Of a stretch of DNA of 26,733 bases, positions 1 through 19,557 are shown piece after piece. The position numbers were made by a program, and so were the translations under genes. Origin of the DNA: an uncultured Nautiliales bacterium (lineage in GTDB: Bacteria; Campylobacterota; Campylobacteria; Campylobacterales; Nautiliaceae). The stretch spans positions 1 through 26,733 of the forward strand of contig CAZEOW010000003.1 in assembly GCA_964514005.1 (NCBI GenBank). Reading direction: 5' to 3'. The notes under the pieces are model-generated. The model was not told the origin of the DNA. It worked only from the letters and a program-made list of their open reading frames with translations, and searched no databases. The number at the start of each line of letters is the position of its first letter. Position 1 is the first letter of the stretch.

Positions 1-1358
1 TGAAGCGAGGTTTTAATAGTTTTATTAGTTTCTTTAGTTTTATTAGTTTCTTTAGTTTTATTAGTTTCTTTAGTTTTATTAGTTTCTTTAGCAGATTTAT
101 TCTCTTTAGAGGTTATTTTTTGATTTGAAGGTTTAGTAGGAATTTTGTCTACTTTCGGTGATAAATGTGTAGATATAACCTTTTTATGTAATTTTATTTT
201 AGTTTTTTGAGTTTTATTAGTATCTAAAGCTTGTTTAGGAAGAATAACAGGAATTATATGAGTTTTATCTTCAAGCTGAGGAATTGAATCTATGTCTATA
301 TCTAAGTCTTCATTTTCTATTTTAATTAAACCTAATTCATTTAAAAATGGGTCTATTGATATAGTATGAATTTTATTTGTAGGTAATTTTTTATAAGGTT
401 TTAAATAAATTAATTTTCTTTTTGTAAATTTATTTTTTTCTAACTGAATATCATCTTCAATTTTTATTATTTTAGCTTTAATATGGTTGTTTATTAACGC
501 TATATACTCTTTTTTTATATCTGTATCTAAAGGTAAGTAAGCTTTTATTATATAATCTGGTTTTAAGAAAGCTAAAATAATACTTTCTCCTTTTTTTACA
601 AATTCTTTATTTTGAACTAAAGGTTTAATATACTCTAAATCTTTTGGAGCAAGTAGGGTATAAGTTTTTTTATTTAATGTTATAATTTTTGCTATTTTAT
701 CATTTAAATAAGCTCTGTTTTTTTCTTCTAAATATACATACCCATCTACTGGAGCTTTTATTTTAAAAGTTTTTGCTTCAACTATACCTTCTGTTGTAAT
801 AATATTCATTTTATCATATATAAAAACCATAAGAAATACAATTACAGTTATAGCACTTATAATCATTCCAATAATAGAAACTTTTTTTAGTAACTCTTTT
901 TTATCAATTCTTTTATCCTCTTCAAGATTTACTCTATCTTCTATCATAATTTGTTTTACAATATTATTAGAGATAATATAGTTTAATATCTCCATTTGTT
1001 CTTTTGTCAAATGAACAAATTTAGCAACAAGCCCCATATCTTCTCTAACTTTTAAAAATTCAAGTTCTATATTCTCTATTTTTATTACTTCATCTTCAAA
1101 TACAAAAAGCATATCTGCTTTTATATATCTTTTATTTAGAAAATATTGAGGATTAGGAGCTTTTATTACACATCTTATGGTAGACCATTCAATAACTTCA
1201 TAGTTTTTACCCTCTATTTTTATAAATATTTTACTTGTATCATCAGATTTGCTTTCTTGAAGAGGGGTATTTATATCTTTCTTTTTAAAAAAAGAACTTA
1301 ATTCTTGTAGTTTGCTGGATATTTTGTTTAAAGTTAATGTAAAATCTATTTTTTTCAT
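1..1358 (-). CDS. Alg44-like protein (degenerate PilZ-like domain, one TM helix, HlyD/MFP-type periplasmic domain, low-complexity linker); 3' end lies outside the window
   Basis: Not in the ORF track. Hand translation from ATG 1358 (GAGGAG SD at 1365-1370) is open for 452 codons to the window edge. It contains IEGKNYEVIEWSTIRCVI (PilZ DxSxxG-like strand), TM VSIIGMIISAITVIVFLMVFIY (about 816-881), and lipoyl half-motifs IKAPVDGYV and VQNKEFVKKGESI. Confidence 0.75.
   Translation of the reverse strand, partial: MKKIDFTLTLNKISSKLQELSSFFKKKDINTPLQESKSDDTSKIFIKIEGKNYEVIEWSTIRCVIKAPNPQYFLNKRYIKADMLFVFEDEVIKIENIELEFLKVREDMGLVAKFVHLTKEQMEILNYIISNNIVKQIMIEDRVNLEEDKRIDKKELLKKVSIIGMIISAITVIVFLMVFIYDKMNIITTEGIVEAKTFKIKAPVDGYVYLEEKNRAYLNDKIAKIITLNKKTYTLLAPKDLEYIKPLVQNKEFVKKGESIILAFLKPDYIIKAYLPLDTDIKKEYIALINNHIKAKIIKIEDDIQLEKNKFTKRKLIYLKPYKKLPTNKIHTISIDPFLNELGLIKIENEDLDIDIDSIPQLEDKTHIIPVILPKQALDTNKTQKTKIKLHKKVISTHLSPKVDKIPTKPSNQKITSKENKSAKETNKTKETNKTKETNKTKETNKTIKTSL
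18..89 (-). repeat. Perfect in-frame 18-bp tandem repeat, 4 copies, encoding (KETNKT)4
   Basis: Plus-strand unit agttttattagtttcttt at 18-35, 36-53, 54-71 and 72-89, with no spacers. Confidence 0.97.
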
Positions 1359-1400: not shown

Positions 1401-2345
1401 TTATTTTATTGTTGAAAAAATTTTATATGATTTTTTTCTTTTACCATTAGAGTTTATTACTCCCCAATATTTTTCTGCTTGTTTAAAATATCCTGTATGA
1501 TTAGGATTATCTATAAAATTAAAAAAATTAAATCCTATTAAGTTAGCCCCATTTTTGAAAATTGGTATTAGTTTTTTAAATTCTTTTAATACATAGCTTT
1601 GAAGGTTAGTTTTATAGCTTGAAATAGCTAAATATGCTAGAAAAGTTGGTTTTTTATACTTTTTATTTAAGTATAAAGCAAATGCAAGTGCTCTTAGGGG
1701 AGTATTTTTTATCTCTTTTATATTATTTCTTGTTATTGCTCTCATTTCTTGAAAAGCTATAAAGTCACTTATTTTAGCACTCTCTTTCATTGAAGGAGAA
1801 TATAAATTCCAGTTATATTCATCCCATATTTTATTGTAATCTCCAAAATCTCCTAAACATATTCCAACTAAAGTGTTTTTATCTTTTAAAAGTTTTATTG
1901 ATTTTACTTGTAATTTATCAAATTGTTTTGAAGAGGCCATATTGTTTTCGTTATATTCTGGATTGATTATAACAATTTTTTTGCCTTTAATTTTTTTTAA
2001 AAAATTTTTAAATTTTTTTAATTTAGCAAAATACTCTTTTTTATGTTTTTTTACAAATTCTGGTGAAATTTCATCTGCAAAGTAATAAAAAATAAAAATA
2101 GGAGTAAATCCTTTTTTAATTGCTTTATTAATTGTTTTAGCCGGATACCAAAACTCTTTCCAATCTCTTGTGATCCAAATAGAAAATGAGTTTACATTTT
2201 TTGGAGTAATTTTATAAATAGGAATTCTATCTTTATAGGAGCATTTTTTATAAAAGGCTTTATTTTTGCAAACAGTAAATCCTCCAACTCCAATATAAAA
2301 AGCAAAACTAAATGAAAAAGAGAGTATTAATAATAATTTACTCAT
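1401..2345 (-). CDS. Secreted (beta/alpha)8 glycoside hydrolase-like protein, clan GH-A-like
   Basis: Signal peptide MSKLLLILSFSFSFA; IIINPEYNE acid/base-like motif; KPTFLAY strand; C-terminal AEKYWGVINSNGKRKKSY resembles the E..fGl...dg..K motif. ATG 2345 is preferred; the track start 2351 is TTG. Confidence 0.65.
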   Translation of the reverse strand: MSKLLLILSFSFSFAFYIGVGGFTVCKNKAFYKKCSYKDRIPIYKITPKNVNSFSIWITRDWKEFWYPAKTINKAIKKGFTPIFIFYYFADEISPEFVKKHKKEYFAKLKKFKNFLKKIKGKKIVIINPEYNENNMASSKQFDKLQVKSIKLLKDKNTLVGICLGDFGDYNKIWDEYNWNLYSPSMKESAKISDFIAFQEMRAITRNNIKEIKNTPLRALAFALYLNKKYKKPTFLAYLAISSYKTNLQSYVLKEFKKLIPIFKNGANLIGFNFFNFIDNPNHTGYFKQAEKYWGVINSNGKRKKSYKIFSTIK

Positions 2346-4107
2346 AATCAATTATAAGGGAAATTGTGGATTTTGGATAAAGTTTTTTAATTCTAACATC
2401 TATAAACCTTTCTTTTTTATTGATGTTTATAATTTTTATTTTTGTTTTTAATACTTCAGGGGCAATGTGTTTAATTTTTACATTTGGATAATATATCCTA
2501 AAAGTAAAATTATCTATATCTACTTCGTTATCGTTAGAAATACCTATAAAAATCTTTTTTTCTGTAATTGTATCTATATGAAGTGAAATATTCTTTAAAA
2601 GTTTTGCTCTTTTGGCTATATCTTTTCCTTTTAGAGTTGGAATTTTTTGTTGTTTTAAAAATTTAAAATACTCTTTTAATATATGAATATTTTCTGGAGC
2701 ACTTAAAAGATGAGTATGAACACTTAGAGTGTATAATGTATTAAGAGATGTTAGTAATTTAGTCTCTTTTTTTATATGATCTAATATTTGCTTATCGTTG
2801 AAATTGTATTCAATAAGATATAAATAATCATCTGTTCCATGACGAGGAAGTAAAACAAAATTATCTATTATTGTTGGTTGCAAAGAAGGAATAGATTTTG
2901 CCATAACATATAAGTAATTGGCTTTTTTAATGTATTCTTTTATGATATTATTAATTTCCTCTCTTGGAGGTCTAAAACCTAAAACTTCTTTTTTAGTTAT
3001 TTTTTGTAAAATATTTTTAGATGCGATTATTTCTTGAGAAGCGTTTTTATTATTAATTTTAGAATGAGAAAAACTATGAGAAGCTATTTCTATATTCTTA
3101 AAAGAAGATGCTTTTTTTGTAATTTTTTTATGTTCTTGAGCAAGTTTTGCTACACAAAATAGAGTTGTATTTATATCATACTCTTTTGCTAATTTAGCAA
3201 AATTTATCATATTTTTATATTTATATTCTGTATCTTCTGATATAAAAACGGCCATTTTTTTATCTAAAAAAGGATATTTTACAAGAGTAATGGGATTTTT
3301 GAAATAGCTAAATATATTTTTAAAAATTGTATTAAAAGTTTTTTCACTCATATCTAAAAATGTGTATGCTGGAGTATTGAAATAAAACCATTTTCCTTTT
3401 TTATAAAATCCGTGCCATAAAATCCCTGCTTTTTTTACATTTAAATGTTTTGGAGTATCGGTAAGTGCCCAATTAGTAAGTGCTAAATCGGGAGTTTTTG
3501 TGAATAAATCTATATAATCATTTCCATAAAGAGTAATGAAAGAGGTTTTTAAGTTTTCTGCTTTTGCAATAGGGGATAGAAGCTTATATGTAAAAAAAGA
3601 TAAATCTTTTTTATAGAGTTTATAATCAGTTGACTTTAGATTAGTAAGATTTATTAAATATAGATTATTTGTAGGAATTAAATTTTCATTAAAATATCCA
3701 AAGTGGTAATTAAATATTAAATTCCCCCCTTTTTTTAAAAATTCTTGAATTTTAAAAAAAGTTTCTCTGCTTAATACATAATTATCGGGAATTATTAAAA
3801 TATCTTTTTTGGAAAGTTGCCTAATTTCATTAGGATATATAGTTTTTGTATTAAATCCTAATGTTTGGATTCTTTGTTGGAATTTTTCAAATACTCTATT
3901 GTAATTGTTTAATAATCCGTTCTTTTCTAAATATAAATCGTTTAATTGAGTTTTTAAAAAATATATATTCTGTTTAGGAGGTTGAAAAAAGCTAAAATTA
4001 TCATTTTTAGGAAGTATTTGATATAAAACATAACCAGAAATAGTAATCATTATAAATACTGATAAAAAAACAAAAAGAGGGTAGGTATATCTATTCGAAA
4101 AAGACAT
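2338..4107 (-). CDS. Membrane-anchored polysaccharide deacetylase (CE4/NodB-like) with an N-terminal class-I GATase-like domain
   Basis: N-terminal TM; ILIIPDNYVLS...FLKKGGNLIF (GATase/GH42-middle-like); VFISEDTE (motif 1 variant), EIASHSFSH (HxxxH), GFRPP and LSVHTH. AGGAG SD at 4114-4118. Confidence 0.85.
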   Translation of the reverse strand: MSFSNRYTYPLFVFLSVFIMITISGYVLYQILPKNDNFSFFQPPKQNIYFLKTQLNDLYLEKNGLLNNYNRVFEKFQQRIQTLGFNTKTIYPNEIRQLSKKDILIIPDNYVLSRETFFKIQEFLKKGGNLIFNYHFGYFNENLIPTNNLYLINLTNLKSTDYKLYKKDLSFFTYKLLSPIAKAENLKTSFITLYGNDYIDLFTKTPDLALTNWALTDTPKHLNVKKAGILWHGFYKKGKWFYFNTPAYTFLDMSEKTFNTIFKNIFSYFKNPITLVKYPFLDKKMAVFISEDTEYKYKNMINFAKLAKEYDINTTLFCVAKLAQEHKKITKKASSFKNIEIASHSFSHSKINNKNASQEIIASKNILQKITKKEVLGFRPPREEINNIIKEYIKKANYLYVMAKSIPSLQPTIIDNFVLLPRHGTDDYLYLIEYNFNDKQILDHIKKETKLLTSLNTLYTLSVHTHLLSAPENIHILKEYFKFLKQQKIPTLKGKDIAKRAKLLKNISLHIDTITEKKIFIGISNDNEVDIDNFTFRIYYPNVKIKHIAPEVLKTKIKIININKKERFIDVRIKKLYPKSTISLIIDYE

Positions 4108-4267
4108 ACTTTTCTCCTAATTCATTTAAAACATCTTCATAAGTTAATTCTTTTTTTGTTTTCTTTCTTTCTCTAGCTTTGTATAAAAAGTAAGCTATTA
4201 CTCCAAATATTAAAGTAAGCAGGGTTATTATTAAAATAAGCATTGATAAAAAACTTAAAATATTCAT
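4091..4267 (-). CDS. Small single-pass membrane protein, 58 aa; candidate PgaD/IcaD-like synthase partner
   Basis: Hand translation: MNILSFLSMLILIITLLTLIFGVIAYFLYKARERKKTKKELTYEDVLNELGEKYVFFE*. ATGA overlap with the GT2 stop, AAGGA SD upstream, 17-nt overlap with the deacetylase start. Below the ORF-track length cutoff. Confidence 0.8.
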   Translation of the reverse strand: MNILSFLSMLILIITLLTLIFGVIAYFLYKARERKKTKKELTYEDVLNELGEKYVFFE

Positions 4268-5589
4268 AAATTTCCTTTTCTATCTAATTTCCCCCAGCTC
4301 ATTTTTACACCAAACCACTCTTCAAATGTAGATAATATTTTAGCAAGATTTATCACTTGAATAAAAAATAATCTATAATATATAGCATAAAATGCTAAAC
4401 TTAATTTATCTCCTGTTACTAATATACAAAACAAAGCTCCAGCAATATCTACTATTGTAAACATTACCCACCAGTAAAACATTAATATACTATACCCAGA
4501 TACCATAGCACTATATAAAATAAACATATTAGCCCATAAATCCATAAAGGGCCAAAAAATTGCTTCAAACAGCATATACCACATTGTAAAAGATGCGGCT
4601 ATATTGCCTCTCCATTTCCATAAAAGTTTTTTATGTTTTCTAATAGCCTGTAATATTCCCCTTGTCCATCTATATCTTTGTTTTATTAAGTTTAATAATT
4701 CTTCTGGAGCTTCTGTATAGGCTACTGCATCGGGTTCAAAATCGATTTTATAACCTTTAGATATAAGCTTTAATGTAACATCACAATCTTCTGCAAATGT
4801 ATCATCATCATATAAGCCTACTTCAATTAATGCATTTTTTCTAAACATTCCAATAGGACCGGGAATTATATTTACAAGTTTTAAAAAAGCCTGACCATTT
4901 CTTACCATATTAAGCCCTTCTAAATACTCAAGGGCTTGAAGTTTTGTCCATAGGTTATTTTGATTGCTTACATAAACTGAACCGGCTACTGCGGCTATGT
5001 CTTCATCTTCAAAATGGGTTACCATTAAAGCTACTGCATCTTTATCAAGTTTTGAATCAGCATCAACTACCATTATTAAATCGCCCTCCGCTCTTTCTAT
5101 ACCATAATTAATCGCCATAGCTTTTCCACCATTTTTTTTTCTAAATACTCTAATCTCTTTTTTAGGGTGATTTTCATATCTTTTTGCAATGGAGTATGTT
5201 TTGTCTTTTGAACCATCATCAATTACTATAATTTCTAAATTTTGATAAGTTTGTTGAGTAAGAGATTCTATTGATTTTGCAATTACAACTTCTTCATTAT
5301 ATGCAGGAACTATTATACTTACTTTTAAAGATGTGTTTTTATTTATCTCTTTTTCTGAATTAATAGCTATTTTAATTATTGAAAAAAATAAAAGTAAAAA
5401 GTATCTTAAAATAATTAGGGTAGTAAAAAATAGAATTAATATCATTCCGGCTTTTGCAAAAATATTTTGGATATTGTAAAAAGTCTGATAAAAGTGAAAA
5501 AGCGTATAACCAAGTCCTGTTATTAAAATAAAACTTAAAAATATAATAACAGGAAGTTTTACCAAACTTTTAATATTTCTAATAAACAT
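4264..5589 (-). CDS. Processive GT2 synthase, PgaC/IcaA/MatB-like (poly-beta-1,6-GlcNAc synthase-like)
   Basis: Two N-terminal and several C-terminal TMs; DDGS (124-127), NGGKA, DAD (176-178), AED, QRYRW (304-308); C-terminal WGKLDRKG; no PilZ domain, so not BcsA. Confidence 0.88.
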   Translation of the reverse strand: MFIRNIKSLVKLPVIIFLSFILITGLGYTLFHFYQTFYNIQNIFAKAGMILILFFTTLIILRYFLLLFFSIIKIAINSEKEINKNTSLKVSIIVPAYNEEVVIAKSIESLTQQTYQNLEIIVIDDGSKDKTYSIAKRYENHPKKEIRVFRKKNGGKAMAINYGIERAEGDLIMVVDADSKLDKDAVALMVTHFEDEDIAAVAGSVYVSNQNNLWTKLQALEYLEGLNMVRNGQAFLKLVNIIPGPIGMFRKNALIEVGLYDDDTFAEDCDVTLKLISKGYKIDFEPDAVAYTEAPEELLNLIKQRYRWTRGILQAIRKHKKLLWKWRGNIAASFTMWYMLFEAIFWPFMDLWANMFILYSAMVSGYSILMFYWWVMFTIVDIAGALFCILVTGDKLSLAFYAIYYRLFFIQVINLAKILSTFEEWFGVKMSWGKLDRKGNL

Positions 5590-8500
5590 TCTATACTTTC
5601 ATAATCATTAGTATTAGTTGTGTTTGAGCTGTTTGAAAAACTACAACCGGTTTTAAATATTTTATTTTTATAAAAAGCTGATATTTTATATAAATTTTTG
5701 CTATCAAAAAAACTATATCCTATAGCACCTTTTAATGTTAAGTAATTTTTTTGATATTTTATCCCTATAAAATTTGAATCTGTCTTTTTAGGAGAATAGT
5801 AGCAACTATTTTTTGAGTTAAATTGATACCATCCTTCAGCAAACATTGTAAATGGAAATGATTCATAAAAGTCATAATAAAATTGAGGAGTAAAAACATT
5901 ATTTTTATTGTTTACATACTCATATGCTAAGCTATACCACAAATCTCTAATAGGAGAAATTTGATTAAAGTATGAAATTTCAGCTTTAATTCTGTTGTAT
6001 TTAATAGAACAGATACTTTTTCTTGAATATGCTAAATTATGTTTATTTATTCTAAAAGTGTATTTGTTAAAATATTCAATATCCCATCCTACCATTTTTT
6101 CAATATCATAAAAAATATCTATTAAGAAGTTTTTATTTTTATATCCTATACCGTAGTAGTAACTTTTATGGTTTTGGTTATTTTGAGTTAGATTATATCC
6201 TCTAATTAACCCAAAAATATTTTTTCCCGCTGTTAAATAGTAAGTTGTCATATCAGTTTTTTGATTATCTTTGAAGTAGTTTAATTTAAAATTTAAAAAA
6301 TAATTTTTTAAAGTTTTTATTACTACTATACTTTTTTTAGGTTGAGTTTTTTTAGGAGTTGTTTTAATGGGTTTAATTATTTTTTTAGGAGGTTTTTTTA
6401 TAGTAATTTTTTTAATAAGAGGTTTTTTTATAATATTTTTATGTGAAACTACTTTTTTTGATTTAGATTTTTTAGCTTCAATAGCTTTTAAATTTTCTAA
6501 TATATATTTTTTTAAAGAGTTTTCTTTTTTAAATGGAACATATTTGCCTTTTTCCCAACTTTCTCTAATAATTTTACACTTTTTTTCGCATTTAATATAT
6601 AAAGTTTTATATCCTTTATCTTTTTTTCTTTTAGATGCAAATACTTGGTAAAACTTTACTATATATACATTTTTTCTTTTTTCTAATAATATAGGGTCAT
6701 ATATTCCTACACTTATAAAATAGGAGTTTTTAAATAGAGCCTGTTTTCTTAATACCCATCCTAAATTATTAGTATAATTTTTTCCATAAAATTTTGAATA
6801 CTCTCTAAAATTCATACTCTCCCAAGCTTTTTTCCAATTATTTAAAAACTCTTTTAAAGAATTAGGAAGAGGTTTTGGCATTTGAGAGAGAAGTTTTTTA
6901 TATATTTTTTTTGCCTCTTCTATTTTTCCGGATTTTTGAAGAGAATAAGCATAGTTATACTCAATAGTAGGAGTTTTTTTATACCACATTAAAAGATAAA
7001 ATTCTCCTGCTGCTTTAGCGTATTGTTTTGAGTATTCTAATGTATAAGCATATTTTTCATGAACATCATAATCATCAGGATTATATGATAGATACATCTT
7101 ATAATAATCTGCAGCTGTTGCATAATTATTTGAAAAATAGGCTCTATCTCCTAAAATAAGTAGCTTTTTACTTCTGTTGTTAAAATATTCATCTATTGTA
7201 GCAGCAGTGCTTGAAGTTACAAAATTGGGAGATATTTTTAATATTTTTGCTTTTAAAATGGCAGCTTTTTTATAATTGGGATATTTATTTAATAATTGAT
7301 TTAATACTCTTAAAGCTTCTTTATTAAAACCATTCCAATAGTATCTTTTTGCAAGTTCTAAATAAGCTTCTTTTGTGTTTTTATAGTTTGCATAATATTC
7401 CCAATTTCCAAAACCTTTATAATAATTTTTTAATTCAAGATATATATCTCCTAAAGTTTTATAGATTTGAGCATTTTCAGGGTGAAGTTTCAAATATCTT
7501 TCATAATAATAAGCTGATTGCTGATAATTTTTTATCATATAATAAAAATCTGCTAATTTTAATAAATACTCTTCATTAGCAGGGTCTTTTTTAAGAAGTT
7601 TTTTATATTTTTTTATAAGTGGAGCGATATTTTTATTTAAAATCATTAAACTCTCTTTTGCATCTTCGTCAAATGGATTTTCTTTTAATACCTTTTTAAA
7701 CATACTTTTTGCTTTTTTCTTATTTCCTTGCCACATTTGAATGTAAGCCAACATTTTATAAGCTTCATATTTTTCTTTTTTATTGCCGTGTTCTAAAACA
7801 TCACTTAAATAGATTGTAGCTTGATAATATTTTCCTTCCCATGCAAGGATTTTTCCAAGTAAAAGTTTTACTTTTGGATTATTTGTGTGTTGAAGTTTTT
7901 TTAAATATTCTAAAGCTTCTTTATTATTTCCACTCCAACTTAGAAGTTTTGCAAGTAAAATTTTTGCATTGTCATTATGGGGATTTTTATTAATAAAATC
8001 CTGAACTAATAATACTGCTTTTTTATGATTTTGTTGGAATAAAGCAAAAGCAAGTGCTTCTAAATTTTTGTAAGATGGGTCTTTTTTATAGGCTTCTTCT
8101 AAATTTTTAATAACTCTTTTTTTAGCTTCTTCGATTTTTTTAGAATATTTTTGGGTAAATTTTTTATCATATTTTGTAATTTGTTTAAGCAGTTTTTCAG
8201 CTTTGTTATACTCTCCTAAATAATAGTATATTTCAATTAGCTTTTTTGCATAGTCTAATTTAAATGAAGAGTAATAGAGTAATTTAAAATAGTTTTTTGC
8301 TTCTTTATATTTTCCAAGATAATATAAATTATAAGCTTTTATTTCAAAATAATCTATACTTTTTTTGTTTTTTATTTTAGATAGAACAAAAAGAGAGTCT
8401 TTATATTTTCCTTCCCACATCAACACTCTTGCTATTTTTATTTTTGAATCATCAGTTAAAGAGTCTATTTTTTTTATTGCATTAAGAGCATAAAAGAATT

Positions 8501-8828
8501 GTAAAAGCTTTTTATATTTTCCTTTTTCGTAAAAGTAAGAGACTGTATTATTTGGATTTTTGATTAAATATTTTTTATAAATAAAAAAAGATTCTATTTG
8601 TCTTTTTAATTTTTTTGCTATTTTATTTTTTTTATCTATTTTTAAAACTTTTTCTATATATTTTTTAGCTTCTTTATAATTTCCTTTTTGAATATAATAT
8701 TTTGCTAATAAAAGGCGGTTTTTTGTATCGTATTTGTGAGTTTTTACATATTGGATTAAACCTTTTACATCAATATTTAAAGCAAAAAGAGGAATAAAAA
8801 ATAAAAGCAGCAATACTCTTATTTGCAT
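5559..8828 (-). CDS. Outer-membrane polysaccharide export protein: signal peptide, TPR scaffold, NTF2-like domain, K/P-rich linker, C-terminal beta-barrel (PgaA/BcsC/PelB functional class)
   Basis: MQIRVLLLLFFIPLFA signal (ATG 8828 preferred over 8846); many TPRs with recurrent LA..L.W.G; about 250 C-terminal residues of alternating aromatic strands including CYYSP, ending in Trp. Confidence 0.78.
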   Translation of the reverse strand: MQIRVLLLLFFIPLFALNIDVKGLIQYVKTHKYDTKNRLLLAKYYIQKGNYKEAKKYIEKVLKIDKKNKIAKKLKRQIESFFIYKKYLIKNPNNTVSYFYEKGKYKKLLQFFYALNAIKKIDSLTDDSKIKIARVLMWEGKYKDSLFVLSKIKNKKSIDYFEIKAYNLYYLGKYKEAKNYFKLLYYSSFKLDYAKKLIEIYYYLGEYNKAEKLLKQITKYDKKFTQKYSKKIEEAKKRVIKNLEEAYKKDPSYKNLEALAFALFQQNHKKAVLLVQDFINKNPHNDNAKILLAKLLSWSGNNKEALEYLKKLQHTNNPKVKLLLGKILAWEGKYYQATIYLSDVLEHGNKKEKYEAYKMLAYIQMWQGNKKKAKSMFKKVLKENPFDEDAKESLMILNKNIAPLIKKYKKLLKKDPANEEYLLKLADFYYMIKNYQQSAYYYERYLKLHPENAQIYKTLGDIYLELKNYYKGFGNWEYYANYKNTKEAYLELAKRYYWNGFNKEALRVLNQLLNKYPNYKKAAILKAKILKISPNFVTSSTAATIDEYFNNRSKKLLILGDRAYFSNNYATAADYYKMYLSYNPDDYDVHEKYAYTLEYSKQYAKAAGEFYLLMWYKKTPTIEYNYAYSLQKSGKIEEAKKIYKKLLSQMPKPLPNSLKEFLNNWKKAWESMNFREYSKFYGKNYTNNLGWVLRKQALFKNSYFISVGIYDPILLEKRKNVYIVKFYQVFASKRKKDKGYKTLYIKCEKKCKIIRESWEKGKYVPFKKENSLKKYILENLKAIEAKKSKSKKVVSHKNIIKKPLIKKITIKKPPKKIIKPIKTTPKKTQPKKSIVVIKTLKNYFLNFKLNYFKDNQKTDMTTYYLTAGKNIFGLIRGYNLTQNNQNHKSYYYGIGYKNKNFLIDIFYDIEKMVGWDIEYFNKYTFRINKHNLAYSRKSICSIKYNRIKAEISYFNQISPIRDLWYSLAYEYVNNKNNVFTPQFYYDFYESFPFTMFAEGWYQFNSKNSCYYSPKKTDSNFIGIKYQKNYLTLKGAIGYSFFDSKNLYKISAFYKNKIFKTGCSFSNSSNTTNTNDYESIECLLEILKVW

Positions 8829-10120
8829 ATTTTTGTCTCTTCCCATTCAAATGCTTCTATAATATCCGCTTTTGATATATACAATTTTTCAAAAATTGGT
8901 TTTAAATTCCCTTTTCTTACATTAATTAAAACTACATAATAAAATTTTCCATCAAAATATATAATATCTTTATTTCTTAATTTATCGGCTATTTTTTCTA
9001 AATTAAGTTCAGATGTAAATTTAATTAAAGTAAATACAATTCTTTCTAAATATAATGAATTAATAATTTTGCAAAAATTTTCTAATGAATTTGCAATTTT
9101 ATTTTTAGGAAATTTATTTAATAAAGATGTATAAAAGTGAAACTTTATAAGTTTTTCGACTTCTAAAATGTATTCTCCTATTAAAAATTTATTTGGTAAT
9201 ATATCTTCGCATCCTTCTTTAATTGCAAGCATTTTATCTTCTACTCTTACATACTCTTTATTTACTATATATAAAATCTTTGAATCTATTTTTTCTTTCA
9301 TTTTACATATACTTATATCTAATCTATCTGAATTATAAATGACAATATGAGGATTTTCTAAAATTTTTGAAATTACATCCGAAGTGTTTGTAGCAATTTT
9401 TAATTCAAACATAGGTTTATCAAAAATATACCTGTTTAAATTGAGTAGATTTTTGTCTTGCGATACTATTAAAATTTTCTTTTTATTGATAGAGACTTTT
9501 TTTTCTTTTGAATCTGAAAGGTTTAATCTCTCTCCATTGTATAAAAATTGACACTCTTCATATCTTATAGGAAAAATAGAGTGTTTAATAGATAATATTC
9601 TTTGAGATGTTCTTTTTACTATTAAATTTAAATCACTAAAATTTTCCATTATTTCTATACAGGAAGTATTGTCTTTATTGGGAACTGCTGTTATCCATAG
9701 TTTTATTTTTCCTTTTATTTCTATTAATTCTTCCATAAAAGGTTTAACTTCTTCTATATCCGAAATTGAAAATAAAAGGTCAATTCTTTGAAAGATTAAA
9801 ATATCAGGATTAAAAGTTTTAATTATTCTTTTTAGATCTTCTAACAAAAACTTATATCCAAATTGAATTTTAAAGTCTTCCCAATTCTCTTTTAAATTTA
9901 AATATTCTAATTTTTTAATAGTTTGTTGCAGTTTTTCATCTTTTATAAAAGAAATTGCTTTTAATCTTTTTTCAAAAATTTGTTTAGGATAAGCGGATAA
10001 AATTAAAACTTTTGCTTTTTGTCTTGAAATTTCAAATAAACTAAAAGTTAATTTTCCAACTTTTTTACTCCCTTCTATTAAAATTATATCAGATTGTTGT
10101 AATGCATCATGTATTGTCAT
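8819..10120 (-). CDS. BcsE-like protein: degenerate RecA/KaiC-like domain, degenerate receiver, degenerate GGDEF with intact I-site
   Basis: GSKKVGKLT (Walker A-like, aa 17-25); KKILIVSQD...PHIVIYN receiver lacking the phospho-Asp; RVED (292-295); LRNKDIIYFDGKFYYVVL (RxxD 382-385, GGDEF lost). AAGGA SD. Confidence 0.7.
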   Translation of the reverse strand: MTIHDALQQSDIILIEGSKKVGKLTFSLFEISRQKAKVLILSAYPKQIFEKRLKAISFIKDEKLQQTIKKLEYLNLKENWEDFKIQFGYKFLLEDLKRIIKTFNPDILIFQRIDLLFSISDIEEVKPFMEELIEIKGKIKLWITAVPNKDNTSCIEIMENFSDLNLIVKRTSQRILSIKHSIFPIRYEECQFLYNGERLNLSDSKEKKVSINKKKILIVSQDKNLLNLNRYIFDKPMFELKIATNTSDVISKILENPHIVIYNSDRLDISICKMKEKIDSKILYIVNKEYVRVEDKMLAIKEGCEDILPNKFLIGEYILEVEKLIKFHFYTSLLNKFPKNKIANSLENFCKIINSLYLERIVFTLIKFTSELNLEKIADKLRNKDIIYFDGKFYYVVLINVRKGNLKPIFEKLYISKADIIEAFEWEETKICK

Positions 10121-11957
10121 TTAATTCCTTTAATTGATTCTCAAATACCTTTACAAGAGGCGATTTTTCATATTTTAATACTTTTATTATCAATATAATA
10201 GCCTCTTTATTGTAAGGGTCTTTTTCTAAAACTTTATAAAGGTATTTTTTTGCCTTTTTATACTCTTTTAAGTAAAAATAGTCTTTTGCTATTACAAGAT
10301 AACTTTCGCTATTTTTTAAAATATCTAAACTTTTTTTAAATTTTTTTAAATTAAATAAGATTTCTCCTAAAACAGATTTAGTCTCTTTATTAGGATTTAA
10401 GTTATATGCTATATTGGCAAAATTTAAAGCCTCTTTTGGAGAAGATAATTTAGCTTTTAATAAATAAGGTTTATAAGAAGCTTTATTTATTGTTTCTAAA
10501 CTTTTTTCTATATATGTTTTTGCAAGAGGCAGATTTTTTTCTTTATAAGCTTTTAGGGCTTTTTTGTAATTTGTTAAAGAGAGATATTTTATAGTTTTTG
10601 GTTTTGAAAACAAATTGTTTTTTATTGCTTGAATTTTAATATACCACCATCCATCGTTAAGCTCGCTTAAAGAAAAATATTTTTTAGAAGTTTTATATCT
10701 TAAAATAGGAGTTTTTATAAATTTTTTATCTCTACTGATAGTAATTACAAACTTTTTATAAGGACTTGTCCATTTTAATATATTTTCTATTTTTAACTCT
10801 TTAACAGGAAGAGGAAGTATTGTTTTAATAATCTCTCCATTCTTTGTATAAAAACCTTCATTTTCTTTTATTTTAATTTTATCTGTTGTAATTGCCCCGC
10901 TATACACACTTGTAGCTAATGTTTTTTCGTTTTTTATTACTTCAAAATCTGTTCCGTAATTTTTTATTTTATTATTTTCTGCTATTATTTCTACTTTGTT
11001 GTTATTAGTAATAAATTCAGCATCAGCTTTTTTTATAATAATCTTATTTTTAAAATTTGTTGAAAATAAATTTTTATAAGCTCTTATTTCTAACTTATCA
11101 TTTTTATAAGTCTTTATTATTACATTGTTTTCAAGTTTGTATATTTTCATATTATTTGAACTGCCAATATCTATTTTTTGGGGAAAAAGACAGTAAAAAT
11201 AATCTATTGAAAACAATAGAACAATCGTAACAGTTGATAAAGCAGCGGCAAGTCTTTTTATTCTTATAATTTTTGCTGTTTTTGGAAGATATATAAAAAA
11301 ACTTGTTCCTTCTTTCTCTTTACTCTCTACAGCAATTGAACCTCCTAATTTTTCTATTACCACTTTAGTTAAATTAAGTCCAATTCCACTCCCTTCTTTT
11401 TTATCAGTTGTATAATATTTTTTAAATATTTTTGTTATTTCTTCTTTGCTAATTCCTTCTCCCGTATCTTTTATAGAAATTAAATAACCGCTTTTTTCTT
11501 TTTCTACTTTTATAAAAACAACACCTTTGTATTTATTATATTTTATAGCATTATGCAAGAGATTAAAAAAAGCCTTTTTTAACCACTCTTTATTAGCAGT
11601 AATAGGAAGCTTTTCGTGTTTAAAAACTATTTCTATCTCTTTTCTTTCAATATCGCTTTTTAACTCTTCTAAAATCTCCCATATTAACTCATTTAAATTA
11701 AATCTATGATTTTTTAATTTACTTCTTTTATATCTTTCAACTTCAATAAAATCTTTTAACATCTCAATAACTATATTAAGATTGGTTTTTATATTTCTTA
11801 AAAGTTCTTCTTTTTTCTCTTTTGGAATCTTTTTTTCTAAAATGGAAACTGAAAATTTAATACTTGCAAGTTTATTTTTTATATCGTGATAAAAAACATG
11901 TGCAAAAGGTGTTTTTTTTTTAACATTATTCTCCCCCTTTTCTAAAAATATATCCAA
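10107..11957 (-). CDS. Histidine kinase with inverted architecture: HisKA-HATPase, TM, FecR-like, FN3-like, TPR
   Basis: H-box YHDIKNKL, N-box NLLHNAIKY, G1 KDTGEG, G2 GSGIGL; TM aa 236-258; YGTDFEV...SVYSG (FecR-like); GWWYIKIQAI (FN3-like). The track start 11957 is a weak TTG; a stronger ATG at 11926 is out of frame. Confidence 0.85.
   Translation of the reverse strand: MDIFLEKGENNVKKKTPFAHVFYHDIKNKLASIKFSVSILEKKIPKEKKEELLRNIKTNLNIVIEMLKDFIEVERYKRSKLKNHRFNLNELIWEILEELKSDIERKEIEIVFKHEKLPITANKEWLKKAFFNLLHNAIKYNKYKGVVFIKVEKEKSGYLISIKDTGEGISKEEITKIFKKYYTTDKKEGSGIGLNLTKVVIEKLGGSIAVESKEKEGTSFFIYLPKTAKIIRIKRLAAALSTVTIVLLFSIDYFYCLFPQKIDIGSSNNMKIYKLENNVIIKTYKNDKLEIRAYKNLFSTNFKNKIIIKKADAEFITNNNKVEIIAENNKIKNYGTDFEVIKNEKTLATSVYSGAITTDKIKIKENEGFYTKNGEIIKTILPLPVKELKIENILKWTSPYKKFVITISRDKKFIKTPILRYKTSKKYFSLSELNDGWWYIKIQAIKNNLFSKPKTIKYLSLTNYKKALKAYKEKNLPLAKTYIEKSLETINKASYKPYLLKAKLSSPKEALNFANIAYNLNPNKETKSVLGEILFNLKKFKKSLDILKNSESYLVIAKDYFYLKEYKKAKKYLYKVLEKDPYNKEAIILIIKVLKYEKSPLVKVFENQLKELNDNT
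11912..11921 (-). repeat. A10 homopolymer in the first codons of the histidine kinase
   Basis: Ten T on the plus strand. Minus strand reads GGGGGAGAATA-ATG-TT-A10-CACC. It is the longest run I noticed in the window. Confidence 0.9.
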
Positions 11958-12582
11958 GCTCTCTTTTATTTATAATTAAATCTTTTTTTCCAAGTTTTTC
12001 TCTTAATCTTTTTACCAAAACATTTAAAGTATTTTTTGGAACATATTCTTGCCATATGTGAGATATGATAAAATCAGAACTTAAAATCTTTCCTTCATTA
12101 TTTAAAAATAATTCCAATAAATCACTTTCTCTTCTTGTAAGATTGATTACTTTTGCTTTTTTTATTAAAAGTTTTTCTTCATAGTTATACTTAATATCAT
12201 CGTCTATATAAATAATTTTTTTAGGTTTAAAAATTTTATTAATTCTCAAAATTATTTCTTCATAATCAAACGGTTTTTTTATAAAATCTTCTGCACCAAG
12301 CTCAAAGGCTTTTTTTATATTTTCTATTTCAGTATGACTTGACATAATAATAATTTTGTATCTTTCAAAGATTTGAAAATGTTTTTTCATCTCTTCTAAA
12401 AAATTCCCATCAGGTAAAGTTATATCAGCCAAAATCAAATCAGGATCTATTTTTTCAAAGTTTTGTAAAAACTCTTTAAGGGTATAATATGAATATATTC
12501 TAAACTCTTCTGCTTCAAGAATTAAACTTATAGCATAATTTAAATCTTTTTCGTCTTCTAGGATAACTATCTTCAACTTCAC
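11926..12582 (-). CDS. OmpR/PhoB-family response regulator
   Basis: ILEDE acidic pocket, DLILADITLPDG phospho-Asp, KKPF, winged-helix LTRRE...LNVLVKRLREKL...GY. GTG start at 12582 or TTG at 12576. Confidence 0.93.
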   Translation of the reverse strand: MKLKIVILEDEKDLNYAISLILEAEEFRIYSYYTLKEFLQNFEKIDPDLILADITLPDGNFLEEMKKHFQIFERYKIIIMSSHTEIENIKKAFELGAEDFIKKPFDYEEIILRINKIFKPKKIIYIDDDIKYNYEEKLLIKKAKVINLTRRESDLLELFLNNEGKILSSDFIISHIWQEYVPKNTLNVLVKRLREKLGKKDLIINKRELGYIFRKGGE

Positions 12583-15134: not shown

Positions 15135-15473
15135 ATGGGAACAGTCTTAATTTATGCAGCTGGTATTTTAGCTGGAATTTTTTTGCTTTATTTAATTGGT
15201 ATTAGTGTAGCCCCTTTTAATCCAAGTGATATTAAAAATGATCACTTTGAGTGTGGGCTTCCACCAAGTTCTGAAGTTCCTATGAAAGCGAACTTTGGAT
15301 ATTTTATTTTTGCAATTGCTTTTATTGTTTTTGATATGGCAGGGTTGTTTTTTAGTCTATTTGTATTTGCTGATAGTAAAGAGGCTTTAAATTGGGCAAT
15401 GGTATTTGGGATACTTTTATTTGCCGCTATTACTATTTCGATGAAGGAGTATAGAAATGCTAAAGATTCTTGA
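15135..15473 (+). CDS. nuoA: Complex I-like subunit A
   Basis: Three TMs, HFECG loop, FIVFD motif. Confidence 0.88.
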   Translation: MGTVLIYAAGILAGIFLLYLIGISVAPFNPSDIKNDHFECGLPPSSEVPMKANFGYFIFAIAFIVFDMAGLFFSLFVFADSKEALNWAMVFGILLFAAITISMKEYRNAKDS

Positions 15474-15930
15474 TTTTTTTAATTATGCAAGAAGTAAATC
15501 ACCTTGGATAGTGCACTTTTGTAGTGGATGTTGTTCTCTTGAGATACTTGCGGCAATGGGACCAAGATATGATTGGGAAAGGTATGGATATATAATGACA
15601 CCAACTCCAAGACAAGCAGATATTATCTTTATTACCGGATTAGTTAGTAAAAAAATTTTACCGGCTCTTCTTAGAACTTATGAACAAATGCCAGAGCCAA
15701 GATATGTAGCAGCAATAGGAGCTTGTGCTTATGATGGAGGCCCTTATAATGATAGTGTTTCAGTTATCAAAAATATGACAGAGATTTTGCCTGCAGATAT
15801 ATTTGTAGCAGGATGTCCTCCAAAACCTGAAGCAATTATTGCTGGTCTTGAAGAGTTAAAAGAAAAAATTAAAAGAGGGGAGCCAAGTGCATCAAGCCAA
15901 GGCGGCCTTTGGAAACAAATGAAATTTTAA
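15457..15930 (+). CDS. nuoB: Complex I-like subunit B (N2 cluster)
   Basis: GCCSLE, YDWERYG, PRQAD, MPEPRYV, IGACA, GCPPKPEA. Confidence 0.93.
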   Translation: MLKILDFFNYARSKSPWIVHFCSGCCSLEILAAMGPRYDWERYGYIMTPTPRQADIIFITGLVSKKILPALLRTYEQMPEPRYVAAIGACAYDGGPYNDSVSVIKNMTEILPADIFVAGCPPKPEAIIAGLEELKEKIKRGEPSASSQGGLWKQMKF

Positions 15931-15933
15931 GGG

Positions 15934-17589: not shown

Positions 17590-17598
17590 GGAGTGAAA

Positions 17599-18570
17599 AT
17601 GGGTATTGGTGAAATGTTATTTTATATTTTAGTGTTTCCGGGTTTTTTATTTTTATTAGGTTGGACATTTTTTGTTTTTTATTTTGCAAGAAAAACTCTT
17701 GCATATGTGCATAAAAGGGTAGGTCCTCACTATAATGGACCAGCAGGTAGTTTACAAACTGTTTATGATATTTTTAAACTTTTAGTAAAAGAATCTGTAA
17801 CACCAAAGAGTGCCGATCCATATTTATTTAATATTATCCCAATTTTAACTCCTCTTATAGCGGCACTTCCTGTTATCTTAATTCCATGGACTCCTCTTAT
17901 TAACAATGGACATGGAATTGTAGATACTCAATATGGAGTGTTAGGACTTGTTGTTTTAATTGGAGTTGAACCTTTCTTATTGTTCCTAACAGGGTTTGGA
18001 AGTAATAATAAATACTCTTTTCTTGGTGGTATGAGGATATTATCTCAGATGATATCGATGGAAGCTCCGTTTTTCTTAGCGGCACTTTCACCTGCACTTT
18101 TATTTGGTACAATGAATTTATATGAGATTATGTATAGCAATACTTGGCTTACAACTCTTATATTATTACCTGGTGCTATTATTTTTATTATTGCAATGCT
18201 TGGTATTTTAGAACAACCACCTTTTCATATTCCTGATGCAGAACAAGAAATTGTTTATGGATTTTATACAGAGTATGCAGGAACAAATTATGTTCTTTTA
18301 AAATTTGCTGAATTTACAGAAATTTTAGTTGTATCAGCAGCAGCAGTTGTTTTATTTTTTGGAGGGTATAAAGGATTATTCTTCGATAGTTTTTGGTGGC
18401 TGTTTTTAAAAATTATTTTAATTGCGATAGTAATGATAGGTATTAGAGCTTCTAATCCAAGACTTAGACTTGATCAAATGCTTAAATTCTGTTGGAGTTG
18501 GCTAACCCCTCTTGCAGTATTAAATCTTGTGTGGATAGCATTTGCAAAAATTTATATTTTAGGAGCATAA
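17599..18570 (+). CDS. nuoH: Complex I-like subunit H
   Basis: RVGP, DIFKLLVKE, GSNNKYSFLGGMR, EYAG, PRLRLDQ. ATG 17599 after AGGAG is preferred over GTG 17593. Confidence 0.93.
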   Translation: MGIGEMLFYILVFPGFLFLLGWTFFVFYFARKTLAYVHKRVGPHYNGPAGSLQTVYDIFKLLVKESVTPKSADPYLFNIIPILTPLIAALPVILIPWTPLINNGHGIVDTQYGVLGLVVLIGVEPFLLFLTGFGSNNKYSFLGGMRILSQMISMEAPFFLAALSPALLFGTMNLYEIMYSNTWLTTLILLPGAIIFIIAMLGILEQPPFHIPDAEQEIVYGFYTEYAGTNYVLLKFAEFTEILVVSAAAVVLFFGGYKGLFFDSFWWLFLKIILIAIVMIGIRASNPRLRLDQMLKFCWSWLTPLAVLNLVWIAFAKIYILGA

Positions 18571-18571
18571 G

Positions 18572-19090: not shown

Positions 19091-19554
19091 GTGTTTTAAT
19101 TTTAGCGTTGGCTCTTATTTTAGCGGTTATGAGTCTAACTCAGAGAAATACAGTAGGAGCAGTTCTTTCATTTGTTATAATGATGTTTTTATTAGGAATT
19201 TATTATATTCTTATGAATGAAAAACTTTTAGGATTGTTTCAAATATTTGTATATACAGGTGGTATAGTTGTTTTAACTCTATTTGGGATAACAGTAATAG
19301 GTGCTAAATTTCCTAAATTTGAAATTAGACCGTGGGCAGTAGCAGTAGTTAGTATTGTAATGATTGGACTTTTAATTATTCCATTTTTATTACCTGATAC
19401 TGAAACGCCATCACAAGCTATACCTTTAAAAGATCAAGTAAAAATATTTACGGATTTTTACGCTGAACTTGCAATATTTATGGGAGTTGTAGCAGCAAGT
19501 GTATTGTATGGAAGTATAAGAATGCTACATACTCTAAAACATGAAAAGGAATAA
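19087..19554 (+). CDS. nuoJ: Complex I-like subunit J
   Basis: Five hydrophobic segments; QIFVYTGGIVVL motif; position between I and K. Confidence 0.88.
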   Translation: MSVLILALALILAVMSLTQRNTVGAVLSFVIMMFLLGIYYILMNEKLLGLFQIFVYTGGIVVLTLFGITVIGAKFPKFEIRPWAVAVVSIVMIGLLIIPFLLPDTETPSQAIPLKDQVKIFTDFYAELAIFMGVVAASVLYGSIRMLHTLKHEKE

Positions 19555-19557
19555 AAA

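What the first reader, a model, noticed from the sequence alone, without database searches (positions are those of the whole stretch)
18..224. Tandem repeat encodes an array of bacterial N-glycosylation sequons, a natural glyco-tag
Seen: each 18-bp unit encodes E-T-N-K-T, an exact D/E-X-N-X-S/T sequon; a fifth, D-T-N-K-T, lies at 210-224. All are in a predicted periplasmic, disordered K/T/P-rich linker. Known: Campylobacterota PglB glycosylates this extended sequon in flexible regions, the C. jejuni MFP CmeA/AcrA is a model substrate, and engineered tags use tandem sequons. Inference: repeat copy number could set the glycan load on the adaptor without changing the frame.
Basis: partly seen in the sequence, partly recalled or inferred. 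Interest (0 to 1): 0.72.

Follow-up and report, generated by a model that had tools for sequence, protein, structure and literature searches.

The report
Repeat-encoded N-glycosylation sequons in periplasmic tether
A perfect 18-base repeat (four copies here, two in other samples) sits in the floppy periplasmic tether of an exopolysaccharide-synthesis protein of an uncultured deep-sea-vent Nautiliaceae bacterium, and each copy spells a textbook bacterial N-glycosylation site; the sites could plausibly be used, but nothing shows that they are.

Summary
Window 18-89 (minus strand) holds four identical 18-bp units encoding (KETNKT)x4, which gives four E-T-N-K-T sequons. A D-T-N-K-T sequon lies at 224-210.

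The host gene (1358 to beyond position 1, minus strand) is not a CmeA/AcrA efflux adaptor. It encodes an Alg44-like protein: a degenerate PilZ domain, one TM helix, a hairpin-less MFP domain, a Lys/Thr-rich tether of about 170 residues, and a small weakly SPOR-like C-terminal domain. It is the last gene of a PgaC-type exopolysaccharide operon.

Two other vent-metagenome contigs complete the gene. Their flanks are 100% identical to the window, but they carry only two units, so copy number does appear to vary.

NuoCD places the organism in Nautiliaceae, a family reported to have PglB homologues. The next gene, convergent with this one, is a PglF-type dehydratase. For 10 of that gene's 16 closest genomic relatives, a PglB gene lies within 10 kb.

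No pglB from this organism was seen and no orthologue exists to test conservation. The sequon excess is only suggestive: P about 0.12 if counted as one event, about 0.006 if counted as two.

Verdict: a real copy-variable repeat in a periplasmic tether and a plausible, unproven PglB substrate. Selection on glycan load is speculative.

The parts
18..89 (-). Four identical 18-bp units AAAGAAACTAATAAAACT encoding (K-E-T-N-K-T)x4, aa 424-447. Each unit holds one E-T-N-K-T sequon (Asn codons 80-78, 62-60, 44-42, 26-24). Two other assemblies carry two units.
   Evidence: TRF 17-91, 4.2 copies, 100%; translation; coordinates; 36-nt indel against L004/L005 with identical flanks
210..224 (-). Fifth sequon D-T-N-K-T (aa 379-383, Asn codon 218-216). 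The surrounding 30 nt are 24/30 identical to the repeat and may be an old degenerate copy.
3..320 (-). Window part of the Lys/Thr-rich low-complexity tether. The full tether is aa 347-518, net charge +21, 67% K/T/S/N/Q/P, with Thr at period 3. It continues beyond the window start.
   Evidence: composition and periodicity; pLDDT below 50 from aa 327; remainder read from L004/L005
1..1358 (-). CDS of the Alg44-like protein: 452 codons in the window, and 593 aa in full when completed from L005/L004. ATG at 1358-1356, GAGGAG ribosome-binding site upstream.
969..1235 (-). PilZ-like beta-barrel (aa 42-130), cytoplasmic. The c-di-GMP motifs RxxxR and DxSxxG are absent (EWSTIR).
   Evidence: family profile against PDB, best hit the Alg44 PilZ domain 4RT1, E 8.7e-8; Foldseek TM 0.67 to 4RT1; alignment
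813..881 (-). The single transmembrane helix (aa ~160-182), the only hydrophobic segment in 593 aa.
   Evidence: Kyte-Doolittle scan; AF2 helix 154-184
369..794 (-). Periplasmic MFP-like barrel-sandwich/beta-barrel domain (aa ~189-330) with no alpha-hairpin.
   Evidence: homologues hit HlyD_3 in 7 of 10 cases; PDB profile hits to MFPs; Foldseek hits to BesA, CusB, AcrA; all-beta DSSP
1401..8846 (-). Upstream genes of the same operon: TPR+porin (5559-8846), GT2 synthase of PgaC/IcaA type (4264-5589), polysaccharide deacetylase (2338-4107), and an unknown 316-aa protein (1401-2351).
   Evidence: Pfam and NCBIfam

Best explanation
Shown:
- The 18-bp array is an in-frame tandem repeat with four perfect copies here. 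Two other hydrothermal-vent assemblies whose flanks are base-for-base identical carry two copies.
- It lies in the Lys/Thr-rich low-complexity tether (about 170 residues) of a 593-aa protein. The architecture is degenerate PilZ domain, one TM helix, hairpin-less MFP-like domain, tether, then a small C-terminal domain that is predicted beta-alpha-beta-alpha-beta in the P0121 model.
- This is the Alg44 architecture plus an extension. It is the last gene of a PgaC-type synthase-dependent exopolysaccharide operon in an uncultured Nautiliaceae with 26% GC.

Inferred from homology:
- The PilZ side is cytoplasmic. Everything after the TM helix, including all five sequons, is periplasmic, and the tether is flexible.

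Inferred mechanism:
- The array arose by replication slippage in AAA/ACT/AAT-rich DNA. Slippage adds or removes 6-residue units without changing the frame.
- Each unit is a canonical PglB acceptor (E-T-N-K-T), the family has PglB homologues, and a PglF-type gene is adjacent. The organism's N-oligosaccharyltransferase therefore probably modifies at least some of these sites. On that reading the two alleles offer 5 and 3 acceptor sites.
- A plausible benefit is shielding a Lys-rich, protease-exposed tether.

I rate the parts separately: the anatomy about 0.9, glycosylation of at least one site about 0.5, and selection on copy number to tune glycan load about 0.1.
For: - Repeat and frame.
- Copy-number difference with identical flanks.
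- Alg44-like family. Only 10 remote homologues exist among 1.84 billion representatives. They hit PilZ (6 of 10) and HlyD_3 (7 of 10). The family profile's best PDB hits are the Alg44 PilZ domain (8.7e-8), then MFPs. Foldseek finds 4RT1 and BesA. JGI names P0121 and P0125 'Alg44'.
- Single TM helix. Unstructured tail.
- Operon.
- Taxon: NuoCD is 83% identical to Lebetimonas, 82% to Nautilia and 80% to Caminibacter.
- PglB homologues are reported in Nautilia profundicola and Caminibacter mediatlanticus (PMC2952790).
- The convergent neighbour is a PF02719 UDP-GlcNAc 4,6-dehydratase. Of the 16 closest loci in species-representative genomes, 10 carry a WWDYG ORF of 705-946 aa within 10 kb. Three were checked against Pfam and all three matched STT3/PglB. 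In a 78%-identical relative the upstream gene is a PglE-type DegT aminotransferase.
- Tandem DQNAT tags can be fully occupied by PglB (PMC8728485). Deep-sea vent PglBs are functional with altered specificity (PMC6494827).
- Sequon density is about 50 times the background.
Against: - No pglB was seen on any contig of this organism. Its contigs break 125 codons into the pglF-like gene.
- CapD/PglF-type dehydratases also serve O-antigen and capsule pathways, and 6 of the 16 closest loci show no PglB within 10 kb.
- The statistical excess rests on counting DTNKT as independent. Counted as one event, P is about 0.12.
- The units are 100% identical, so the expansion is very recent and shows no sign of selection.
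- No orthologue exists to test conservation.
- The only homologue with a comparable tether (P0121) has no sequon in it.
- A repeat-borne EQNAT array occurs in a Clostridia MAG, a group with no known PglB.
- The acceptor preferences of Nautiliaceae PglB are unknown.
Confidence: 0.5

Rival explanations
1. The sequons are incidental. The repeat is an ordinary slippage-prone low-complexity repeat in a flexible, polycationic spacer. The spacer only has to bridge the inner-membrane synthase complex and the C-terminal wall- or polymer-binding domain. The sequons are a by-product of a K/T/N/E composition with Thr at every third residue, and they are not glycosylated or only trivially so.
For: - Thr shows period 3 along the whole tether.
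- 10% of the orderings of K2T2EN give a sequon in tandem, and P(>=1 sequon) is 0.12 by shuffling.
- The units are identical, so the expansion is recent.
- The P0121 tether has no sequon.
- An EQNAT x3 repeat occurs in a Clostridia MAG.
- No pglB was seen for this organism.
Against: - There are two sequons after collapsing the array (P = 0.006 if they are independent).
- Only 6 acidic residues remain in the collapsed tether segment (137 aa, from aa 364), and 2 of them sit exactly at -2 of an N-X-T.
- The family has PglB homologues and a pglF-type neighbour.
- The sites are exposed, which is the condition PglB needs.
Confidence: 0.4
2. The 4-against-2 copy difference is an assembly artefact, either a collapse or a loop expansion of a short tandem repeat at a contig end. 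It would not be a biological polymorphism.
For: - The window ends 17 nt beyond the array.
- L004 has an unrelated 5' part, bases 1-205.
- All contigs of this population break close to this region.
Against: - The 72-bp array is shorter than a normal read and shorter than the final k-mers of common metagenome assemblers.
- Two independent assemblies (ENA OFCB01007605 and JGI 3300041958) agree on two copies with perfect flanks.
- Contig breaks beside a repeat are what co-existing alleles would produce.
Confidence: 0.2
3. The Thr/Lys-rich tether is modified or used in some other way. It could carry O-linked glycans on the periodic Thr residues. Alternatively, it could act as a polycationic segment that binds the exported polymer or the cell wall. 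In either case the Asn residues would be irrelevant.
For: - 22% Thr with period 3 and net charge +21.
- The protein belongs to an exopolysaccharide export operon.
Against: - No O-oligosaccharyltransferase or known O-glycosylation motif was identified.
- The operon includes a polysaccharide deacetylase, so I infer its polymer is probably cationic. That argues against electrostatic binding by a cationic tether.
- This rival is pure inference.
Confidence: 0.07
4. One reading: the protein is a CmeA/AcrA-type periplasmic adaptor of a tripartite efflux pump.
For: - The periplasmic domain is MFP-like.
- NCBI names one homologue 'HlyD family efflux transporter periplasmic adaptor'.
Against: - The N-terminus is a PilZ domain followed by a TM helix, not a lipoprotein signal.
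- The model has no alpha-hairpin.
- No RND, ABC or MFS transporter or TolC gene is adjacent. The gene closes a GT2/deacetylase/TPR-porin operon.
- The full-length collinear match is to Alg44.
Confidence: 0.03

Closest known systems
Natural PglB substrates of Campylobacter jejuni (e.g. CmeA/AcrA, PEB3, CgpA)
   Same: An extended D/E-X-N-X-S/T sequon on an extracytoplasmic, flexible segment, in a Campylobacterota organism.
   Different: Known substrates carry one or a few scattered, non-repeated sites. Here four sites come from a perfect tandem DNA repeat whose copy number differs between samples. Occupancy is untested, and the oligosaccharyltransferase gene of this organism was not seen.
Engineered glycotags (tandem DQNAT tags; Fisher et al. 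2011, as cited in PMC8728485 and PMC6494827)
   Same: Several sequons a few residues apart in an unstructured stretch. Such arrays can be fully occupied and give a ladder of glycoforms.
   Different: Glycotags are artificial and terminal and use the optimised DQNAT. This array is natural and internal, reads ETNKT with a 6-residue period, and sits in a Lys-rich context.
Alg44 of Pseudomonas aeruginosa (PilZ-TM-MFP alginate co-polymerase; PilZ structures 4RT0/4RT1/4XRN)
   Same: The same domain order and a full-length collinear profile match, plus partnership with a membrane GT2 synthase and a TPR/porin export protein.
   Different: The RxxxR and DxSxxG c-di-GMP motifs are lost. The synthase is PgaC/IcaA-like and comes with a deacetylase, not the alg8/algK/algE/algG/algX set. 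There is an extra tether of about 170 residues and a C-terminal domain of about 75 residues.
SPOR-domain proteins with long disordered linkers (FtsN, DamX, DedD, RlpA)
   Same: A membrane-anchored protein with a long low-complexity periplasmic linker that ends in a small folded C-terminal domain. For this protein a beta-alpha-beta-beta-alpha-beta fold is my own reading of the sequence; the only model is of homologue P0121 and shows beta-alpha-beta-alpha-beta.
   Different: Similarity to SPOR is weak and below threshold (Pfam E = 0.044; hhalign probability 4%). The function in cell division or wall binding is not established here.
Copy-variable repeat-encoded glycosylated linkers (eukaryotic mucin repeats; bacterial serine-rich repeat glycoproteins)
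   Same: The idea that the copy number of a coding tandem repeat sets the number of glycan attachment sites.
   Different: Those are O-linked systems with long arrays and dedicated glycosyltransferases. This would be N-linked through a general oligosaccharyltransferase, with only 2-4 units. The comparison rests on general knowledge.

Membership tests
PglB-dependent N-glycoprotein (acceptor substrate) | Acceptor sequon D/E-X-N-X-S/T with neither X being Pro | tested here: met
   ETNKT x4 and DTNKT x1
PglB-dependent N-glycoprotein (acceptor substrate) | Sequon located on the periplasmic side of the inner membrane | tested here: met
   Met by inference. There is a single TM helix, a PilZ domain N-terminal to it and an MFP-like domain C-terminal to it, as in Alg44. 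No experimental topology is available.
PglB-dependent N-glycoprotein (acceptor substrate) | Sequon in a flexible, exposed segment | tested here: met
   Low-complexity composition: 67% K/T/S/N/Q/P and 20% hydrophobic. pLDDT is below 50 from aa 327 to the end of the modelled part. The sequons themselves (aa 379-447) were not modelled.
PglB-dependent N-glycoprotein (acceptor substrate) | The same genome encodes a PglB/STT3 oligosaccharyltransferase and a lipid-linked glycan pathway | tested here: inconclusive
   No contig of this organism reaches a pglB gene. Indirect support: Nautiliaceae placement; PglB homologues reported in Nautilia and Caminibacter (PMC2952790); an adjacent PglF-type dehydratase; and, for 10 of that gene's 16 nearest relatives, a PglB gene within 10 kb.
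PglB-dependent N-glycoprotein (acceptor substrate) | Glycan shown on the Asn by mass spectrometry or a PglB-dependent mobility shift | not testable with these tools
   Needs experiment.
Alg44-like PilZ-MFP co-polymerase | N-terminal PilZ fold | tested here: met
   Profile against 4RT1, E 8.7e-8; Foldseek TM 0.67, rmsd 3.4 A over 104 columns.
Alg44-like PilZ-MFP co-polymerase | c-di-GMP-binding motifs RxxxR and D/NxSxxG | tested here: not met
   The alignment shows no RxxxR, and EWSTIR stands in place of DWSxxG. All nine homologues keep both motifs.
Alg44-like PilZ-MFP co-polymerase | Single TM helix followed by a periplasmic MFP-like domain | tested here: met
Alg44-like PilZ-MFP co-polymerase | Encoded with an alginate set (alg8, algK, algE, algG, algX, algL and others) | tested here: not met
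   The operon has a PgaC/IcaA-like GT2 synthase, a deacetylase and a TPR+porin protein. The protein works like Alg44 but does not belong to the alginate system.
Tripartite-pump periplasmic adaptor (CmeA/AcrA type) | Lipoprotein or signal-anchored N-terminus, an alpha-hairpin, and adjacent inner-membrane transporter and outer-membrane channel genes | tested here: not met
   A PilZ domain precedes the TM helix. There is no helix between aa 189 and 330. The neighbours are exopolysaccharide genes.
SPOR domain (PF05036) | Significant match to the SPOR profile or fold | tested here: inconclusive
   SPOR is the top Pfam hit for the C-terminal 82 aa, but at E = 0.044 and 14.6 bits against a cut-off of 21, though in register. 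No SPOR chain appears in the PDB profile search. The single-sequence model of the P0121 C-terminus shows beta-alpha-beta-alpha-beta with pLDDT 60-85 and weak RRM-like Foldseek hits.

The most novel reading that the evidence does not exclude
A natural 'glycotag' with variable copy number. In a vent Nautiliaceae, slippage of an 18-bp coding repeat adds or removes PglB acceptor sites in the periplasmic tether of an exopolysaccharide co-polymerase. Individual cells or strains would then differ in the N-glycan load on that tether, which could affect its protease resistance, stiffness or reach. It would be an N-linked bacterial counterpart of copy-variable mucin-type repeats, maintained by selection.
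Probability: 0.1. Interest if true: 0.7.

Novelty: new variant of a known kind. Interest (0 to 1): 0.4.

Why it matters
If the sites are used, this would be, to my knowledge, the first natural tandem-repeat array of bacterial N-glycosylation acceptor sites. It would show that simple repeat slippage can change the number of glycans on a protein. It would also supply a naturally evolved multi-site acceptor from a thermophilic lineage, of interest for glycoengineering.

Separately, the host protein extends the Alg44 architecture. It has a long tether and an extra C-terminal domain, it has lost the c-di-GMP-binding motifs, and it is attached to a PgaC-type synthase. That bears on how synthase-dependent exopolysaccharide machines are built and regulated outside model organisms.

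If the sites are not used, this is an ordinary low-complexity repeat.

Tried and rejected
- Pfam and NCBIfam on the target found no hit.
- The word-indexed homology search of 5.8 billion proteins found nothing.
- The species-representative genome scan with the target found no relative. Conservation of the array in orthologues therefore could not be tested.
- I tried to reach pglB by walking contigs. All contigs of this population stop before or just inside the pglF-like gene.
- The genome scan with the PglF fragment returned no Nautiliaceae among the best 80 loci.
The single-sequence model of P0121 was poor, with mean pLDDT 43.
- The SPOR assignment could not be confirmed.
- Mills et al. 2016, on deep-sea vent PglB enzymes, is not held in the paper library.
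- A literature search for natural repeated sequons in Campylobacter glycoproteomes returned nothing relevant.
- PDB sequence searches for the two unknown operon proteins were uninformative.
- Rejected: the efflux-adaptor reading.
- Rejected: a coding or regulatory role on the plus strand, because the repeat has in-frame TAG codons there.
- Rejected: phase variation by frameshift, because the unit is a multiple of 3.
Full report
1. WHAT IS IN THE SEQUENCE

Tandem Repeats Finder reports one outstanding repeat in the window: 17-91, period 18, 4.2 copies, 100% identity, score 150.

The plus strand has in-frame TAG codons there. The minus strand is open from an ATG at 1358-1356, preceded by GAGGAG, and runs off the window start.

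In that frame the four units occupy 89..18 and read K-E-T-N-K-T four times (aa 424-447). D-T-N-K-T is aa 379-383 at 224..210.

All five fit D/E-X-N-X-S/T with no proline.

2. THE GENE AND ITS MISSING END

An exact search of metagenome contigs for two repeat units found OFCB01007605.1 (L004). Looking up the nearly identical product of the neighbouring gene gave a JGI contig (L005).

Both contigs match the window base for base on the unique flanks but carry two units instead of four, an exact 36-nt difference.

They also supply the rest of the gene: about 70 further residues of Thr/Lys-rich sequence, then a conserved domain of about 75 residues and a stop. The full protein is 593 aa in the four-unit form.

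L004 bases 1-205 do not match the window, so that contig is partly chimeric or rearranged.

3. WHAT THE PROTEIN IS

Pfam, NCBIfam and a word-indexed search of 5.8 billion proteins found nothing. A full HMMER pass over 1.84 billion cluster representatives found only ten remote relatives, at 25-33% identity.

Those relatives define the family:
- 6 of 10 match PilZ and 7 of 10 match HlyD_3.
- The family profile's best hits among solved structures are the Alg44 PilZ domain (4RT1, E 8.7e-8), followed by membrane-fusion proteins.
- A profile comparison with Alg44 is collinear over 327 columns with probability 99.4%.
- JGI itself names two of the relatives 'Alg44'.

An AlphaFold model of residues 1-375 gives these parts:
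- a confident PilZ-like barrel (aa 42-130);
- one long helix (aa 154-184);
- an all-beta domain (aa 189-~330);
- nothing ordered after aa 327.

Foldseek matches the model to the Alg44 PilZ domain (TM 0.67) and to BesA, CusB and AcrA.

A hydropathy scan shows a single hydrophobic segment in the whole protein.

The protein is therefore Alg44-like: cytoplasmic PilZ, one TM helix, periplasmic MFP-like domain. It is not a CmeA/AcrA efflux adaptor. It has no lipoprotein start, no alpha-hairpin and no pump genes beside it.

It closes an operon encoding a TPR+porin protein, a PgaC/IcaA-type GT2 synthase, a polysaccharide deacetylase and an unknown protein.

Unlike all nine aligned relatives, it lacks the RxxxR and DxSxxG c-di-GMP motifs.

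4. THE TETHER AND THE C-TERMINAL DOMAIN

Residues 347-518 are 67% K/T/S/N/Q/P, carry net charge +21, and have Thr preferentially at every third position. Proline is only 4%.

The C-terminal domain is 40% identical to the C-terminus of relative P0121, the only other family member with such an extension.

Its best Pfam match is SPOR, in register but below threshold (E = 0.044). hhalign against remembered SPOR sequences is not significant, and no SPOR structure was recovered. I call it SPOR-like only tentatively.

By topology, all five sequons are periplasmic and lie in a flexible segment between two folded domains. Those are the conditions PglB needs.

5. WHOSE GENOME, AND IS THERE A PglB?

The window is 26.3% GC. 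Its contigs come from hydrothermal-vent metagenomes.

NuoCD is 83% identical to Lebetimonas natsushimae, 82% to Nautilia species and 80% to Caminibacter. The organism is therefore an uncultured Nautiliaceae (Campylobacterota).

A review records strong PglB hits, with the WWDXG motif, in Nautilia profundicola and Caminibacter mediatlanticus (PMC2952790). PglB orthologues from deep-sea vent epsilonproteobacteria are reported to be active with altered specificity (PMC6494827).

The gene convergent with the target, 21 nt beyond its stop, is a PF02719 UDP-GlcNAc 4,6-dehydratase of the PglF/CapD type.
- Its nearest relatives in species-representative genomes are Campylobacterota.
- In 10 of the 16 closest loci an ORF of 705-946 aa with WWDYG lies within 10 kb. 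Three were checked against Pfam and all three matched STT3/PglB.
- In a 78%-identical relative the upstream gene is a DegT aminotransferase, matching the pglE-pglF order of the C. jejuni pgl locus as I recall it.

This makes a pgl locus next to the target likely. But no contig of this organism reaches a pglB gene, and CapD-type dehydratases also serve other glycan pathways.

6. IS THE SEQUON CONTENT MORE THAN CHANCE?

Background density is 0.6 per 1000 aa in the other window proteins and about 0.5 per 1000 in 469,000 residues of ORFs from 80 loci. The tether has 5 in 155 residues.

The four repeat copies are a single event:
- With the array collapsed to one unit, shuffling gives P(>=1) = 0.12 and P(>=2) = 0.006.
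- The DNA around DTNKT is 24/30 identical to the repeat, so the two may share ancestry.
- One in ten orderings of the unit's residues gives a sequon in tandem.
- The only other cluster of three or more sequons in the 80 loci is an EQNAT repeat in a Clostridia MAG.
- The P0121 tether has no sequon.

Chance cannot be excluded.

7. MECHANISM AND VERDICT

Shown: an in-frame repeat whose copy number differs between assemblies, in the periplasmic tether of an Alg44-like exopolysaccharide protein of a Nautiliaceae.

Inferred:
- Slippage generates alleles with 3 or 5 acceptor sites.
- PglB probably uses at least some of them (about 0.5).
- Tandem sequons can all be occupied in engineered proteins (PMC8728485).

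Speculative (about 0.1): copy number is selected to tune glycan load, for example to shield a Lys-rich tether from proteases.

The main rival, at 0.4, is an unglycosylated spacer with incidental sequons.

The 4-against-2 difference could be an assembly artefact (0.2), but the array is shorter than a read and two independent assemblies agree.

Interest is moderate.

Noticed in passing
window 969-1235 (-), aa 20-63 of the target: The target's PilZ domain lacks both c-di-GMP-binding motifs: there is no RxxxR, and EWSTIR stands in place of DWSxxG. All nine remote homologues keep both. The regulator input of this Alg44-like protein may be lost or changed.
   Followed up: partly
L004 572-796 (+) and L005 421-645 (-), outside the window: The target ends in a conserved domain of about 75 residues, which I read from the sequence as beta-alpha-beta-beta-alpha-beta. 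It is 40% identical to the C-terminus of homologue P0121. Similarity to SPOR is weak and in register but below threshold. An Alg44-like protein with such a tail has, to my knowledge, not been described.
   Followed up: partly
L004 818-1195 (-); L005 22-399 (+): The convergent neighbour is a PglF/CapD-type UDP-GlcNAc 4,6-dehydratase, 21 nt from the target's stop. L004 and L005 both end about 125 codons into it, and the window ends 17 nt past the repeat. These are recurrent assembly break points and may mark strain-variable sequence.
   Followed up: partly
L004 1-205: The first 205 bases of this 1197-nt contig do not match the window, whereas L005 does across the same stretch. The contig is probably chimeric or rearranged.
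   Followed up: partly
homologues P0121 aa 194, P0122 aa 187, P0129 aa 193: Three remote homologues share a D-[AT]-N-[IM]-T sequon at the same alignment position just after the TM helix. The target has E-A-K-T there. The shared site could be a conserved PglB site or plain sequence conservation.
   Followed up: no
window 1401-12582 (-): A synthase-dependent exopolysaccharide operon: TPR+porin (1095 aa), PgaC/IcaA-like GT2 synthase, deacetylase, and a 316-aa protein with no detectable relatives. Upstream are a 433-aa protein with a weak receiver-like segment, a histidine kinase with a C-terminal TPR region, and a response regulator.
   Followed up: partly
window 6374-6440 (-): The TPR+porin protein has its own Lys/Pro-rich low-complexity linker (KKPLIKKITIKKPPKKIIKPIKTTPKKTQPKKS). 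It lies in or next to a 30-bp imperfect tandem repeat (TRF 6374-6440). Basic repeat linkers recur in this operon.
   Followed up: no
window 15135-24473 (+): An 11-gene nuo operon with fused nuoCD and no nuoE/F/G. NuoI carries a Lys/Glu/Ala-rich C-terminal tail encoded by a 27-bp repeat (19009-19061).
   Followed up: no
L085 15386-17083 (+): A Clostridia MAG protein carries EQNAT three times in a 13-residue tandem repeat. Repeat-borne arrays of the extended sequon can therefore arise in lineages with no known PglB.
   Followed up: no
window 24473-26698 (+): A 741-aa secreted TPR protein with an N-terminal DUF7494 domain follows nuoN directly. It carries two extended sequons (ELNIS at aa 15, DNNLT at aa 431).
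   Followed up: no
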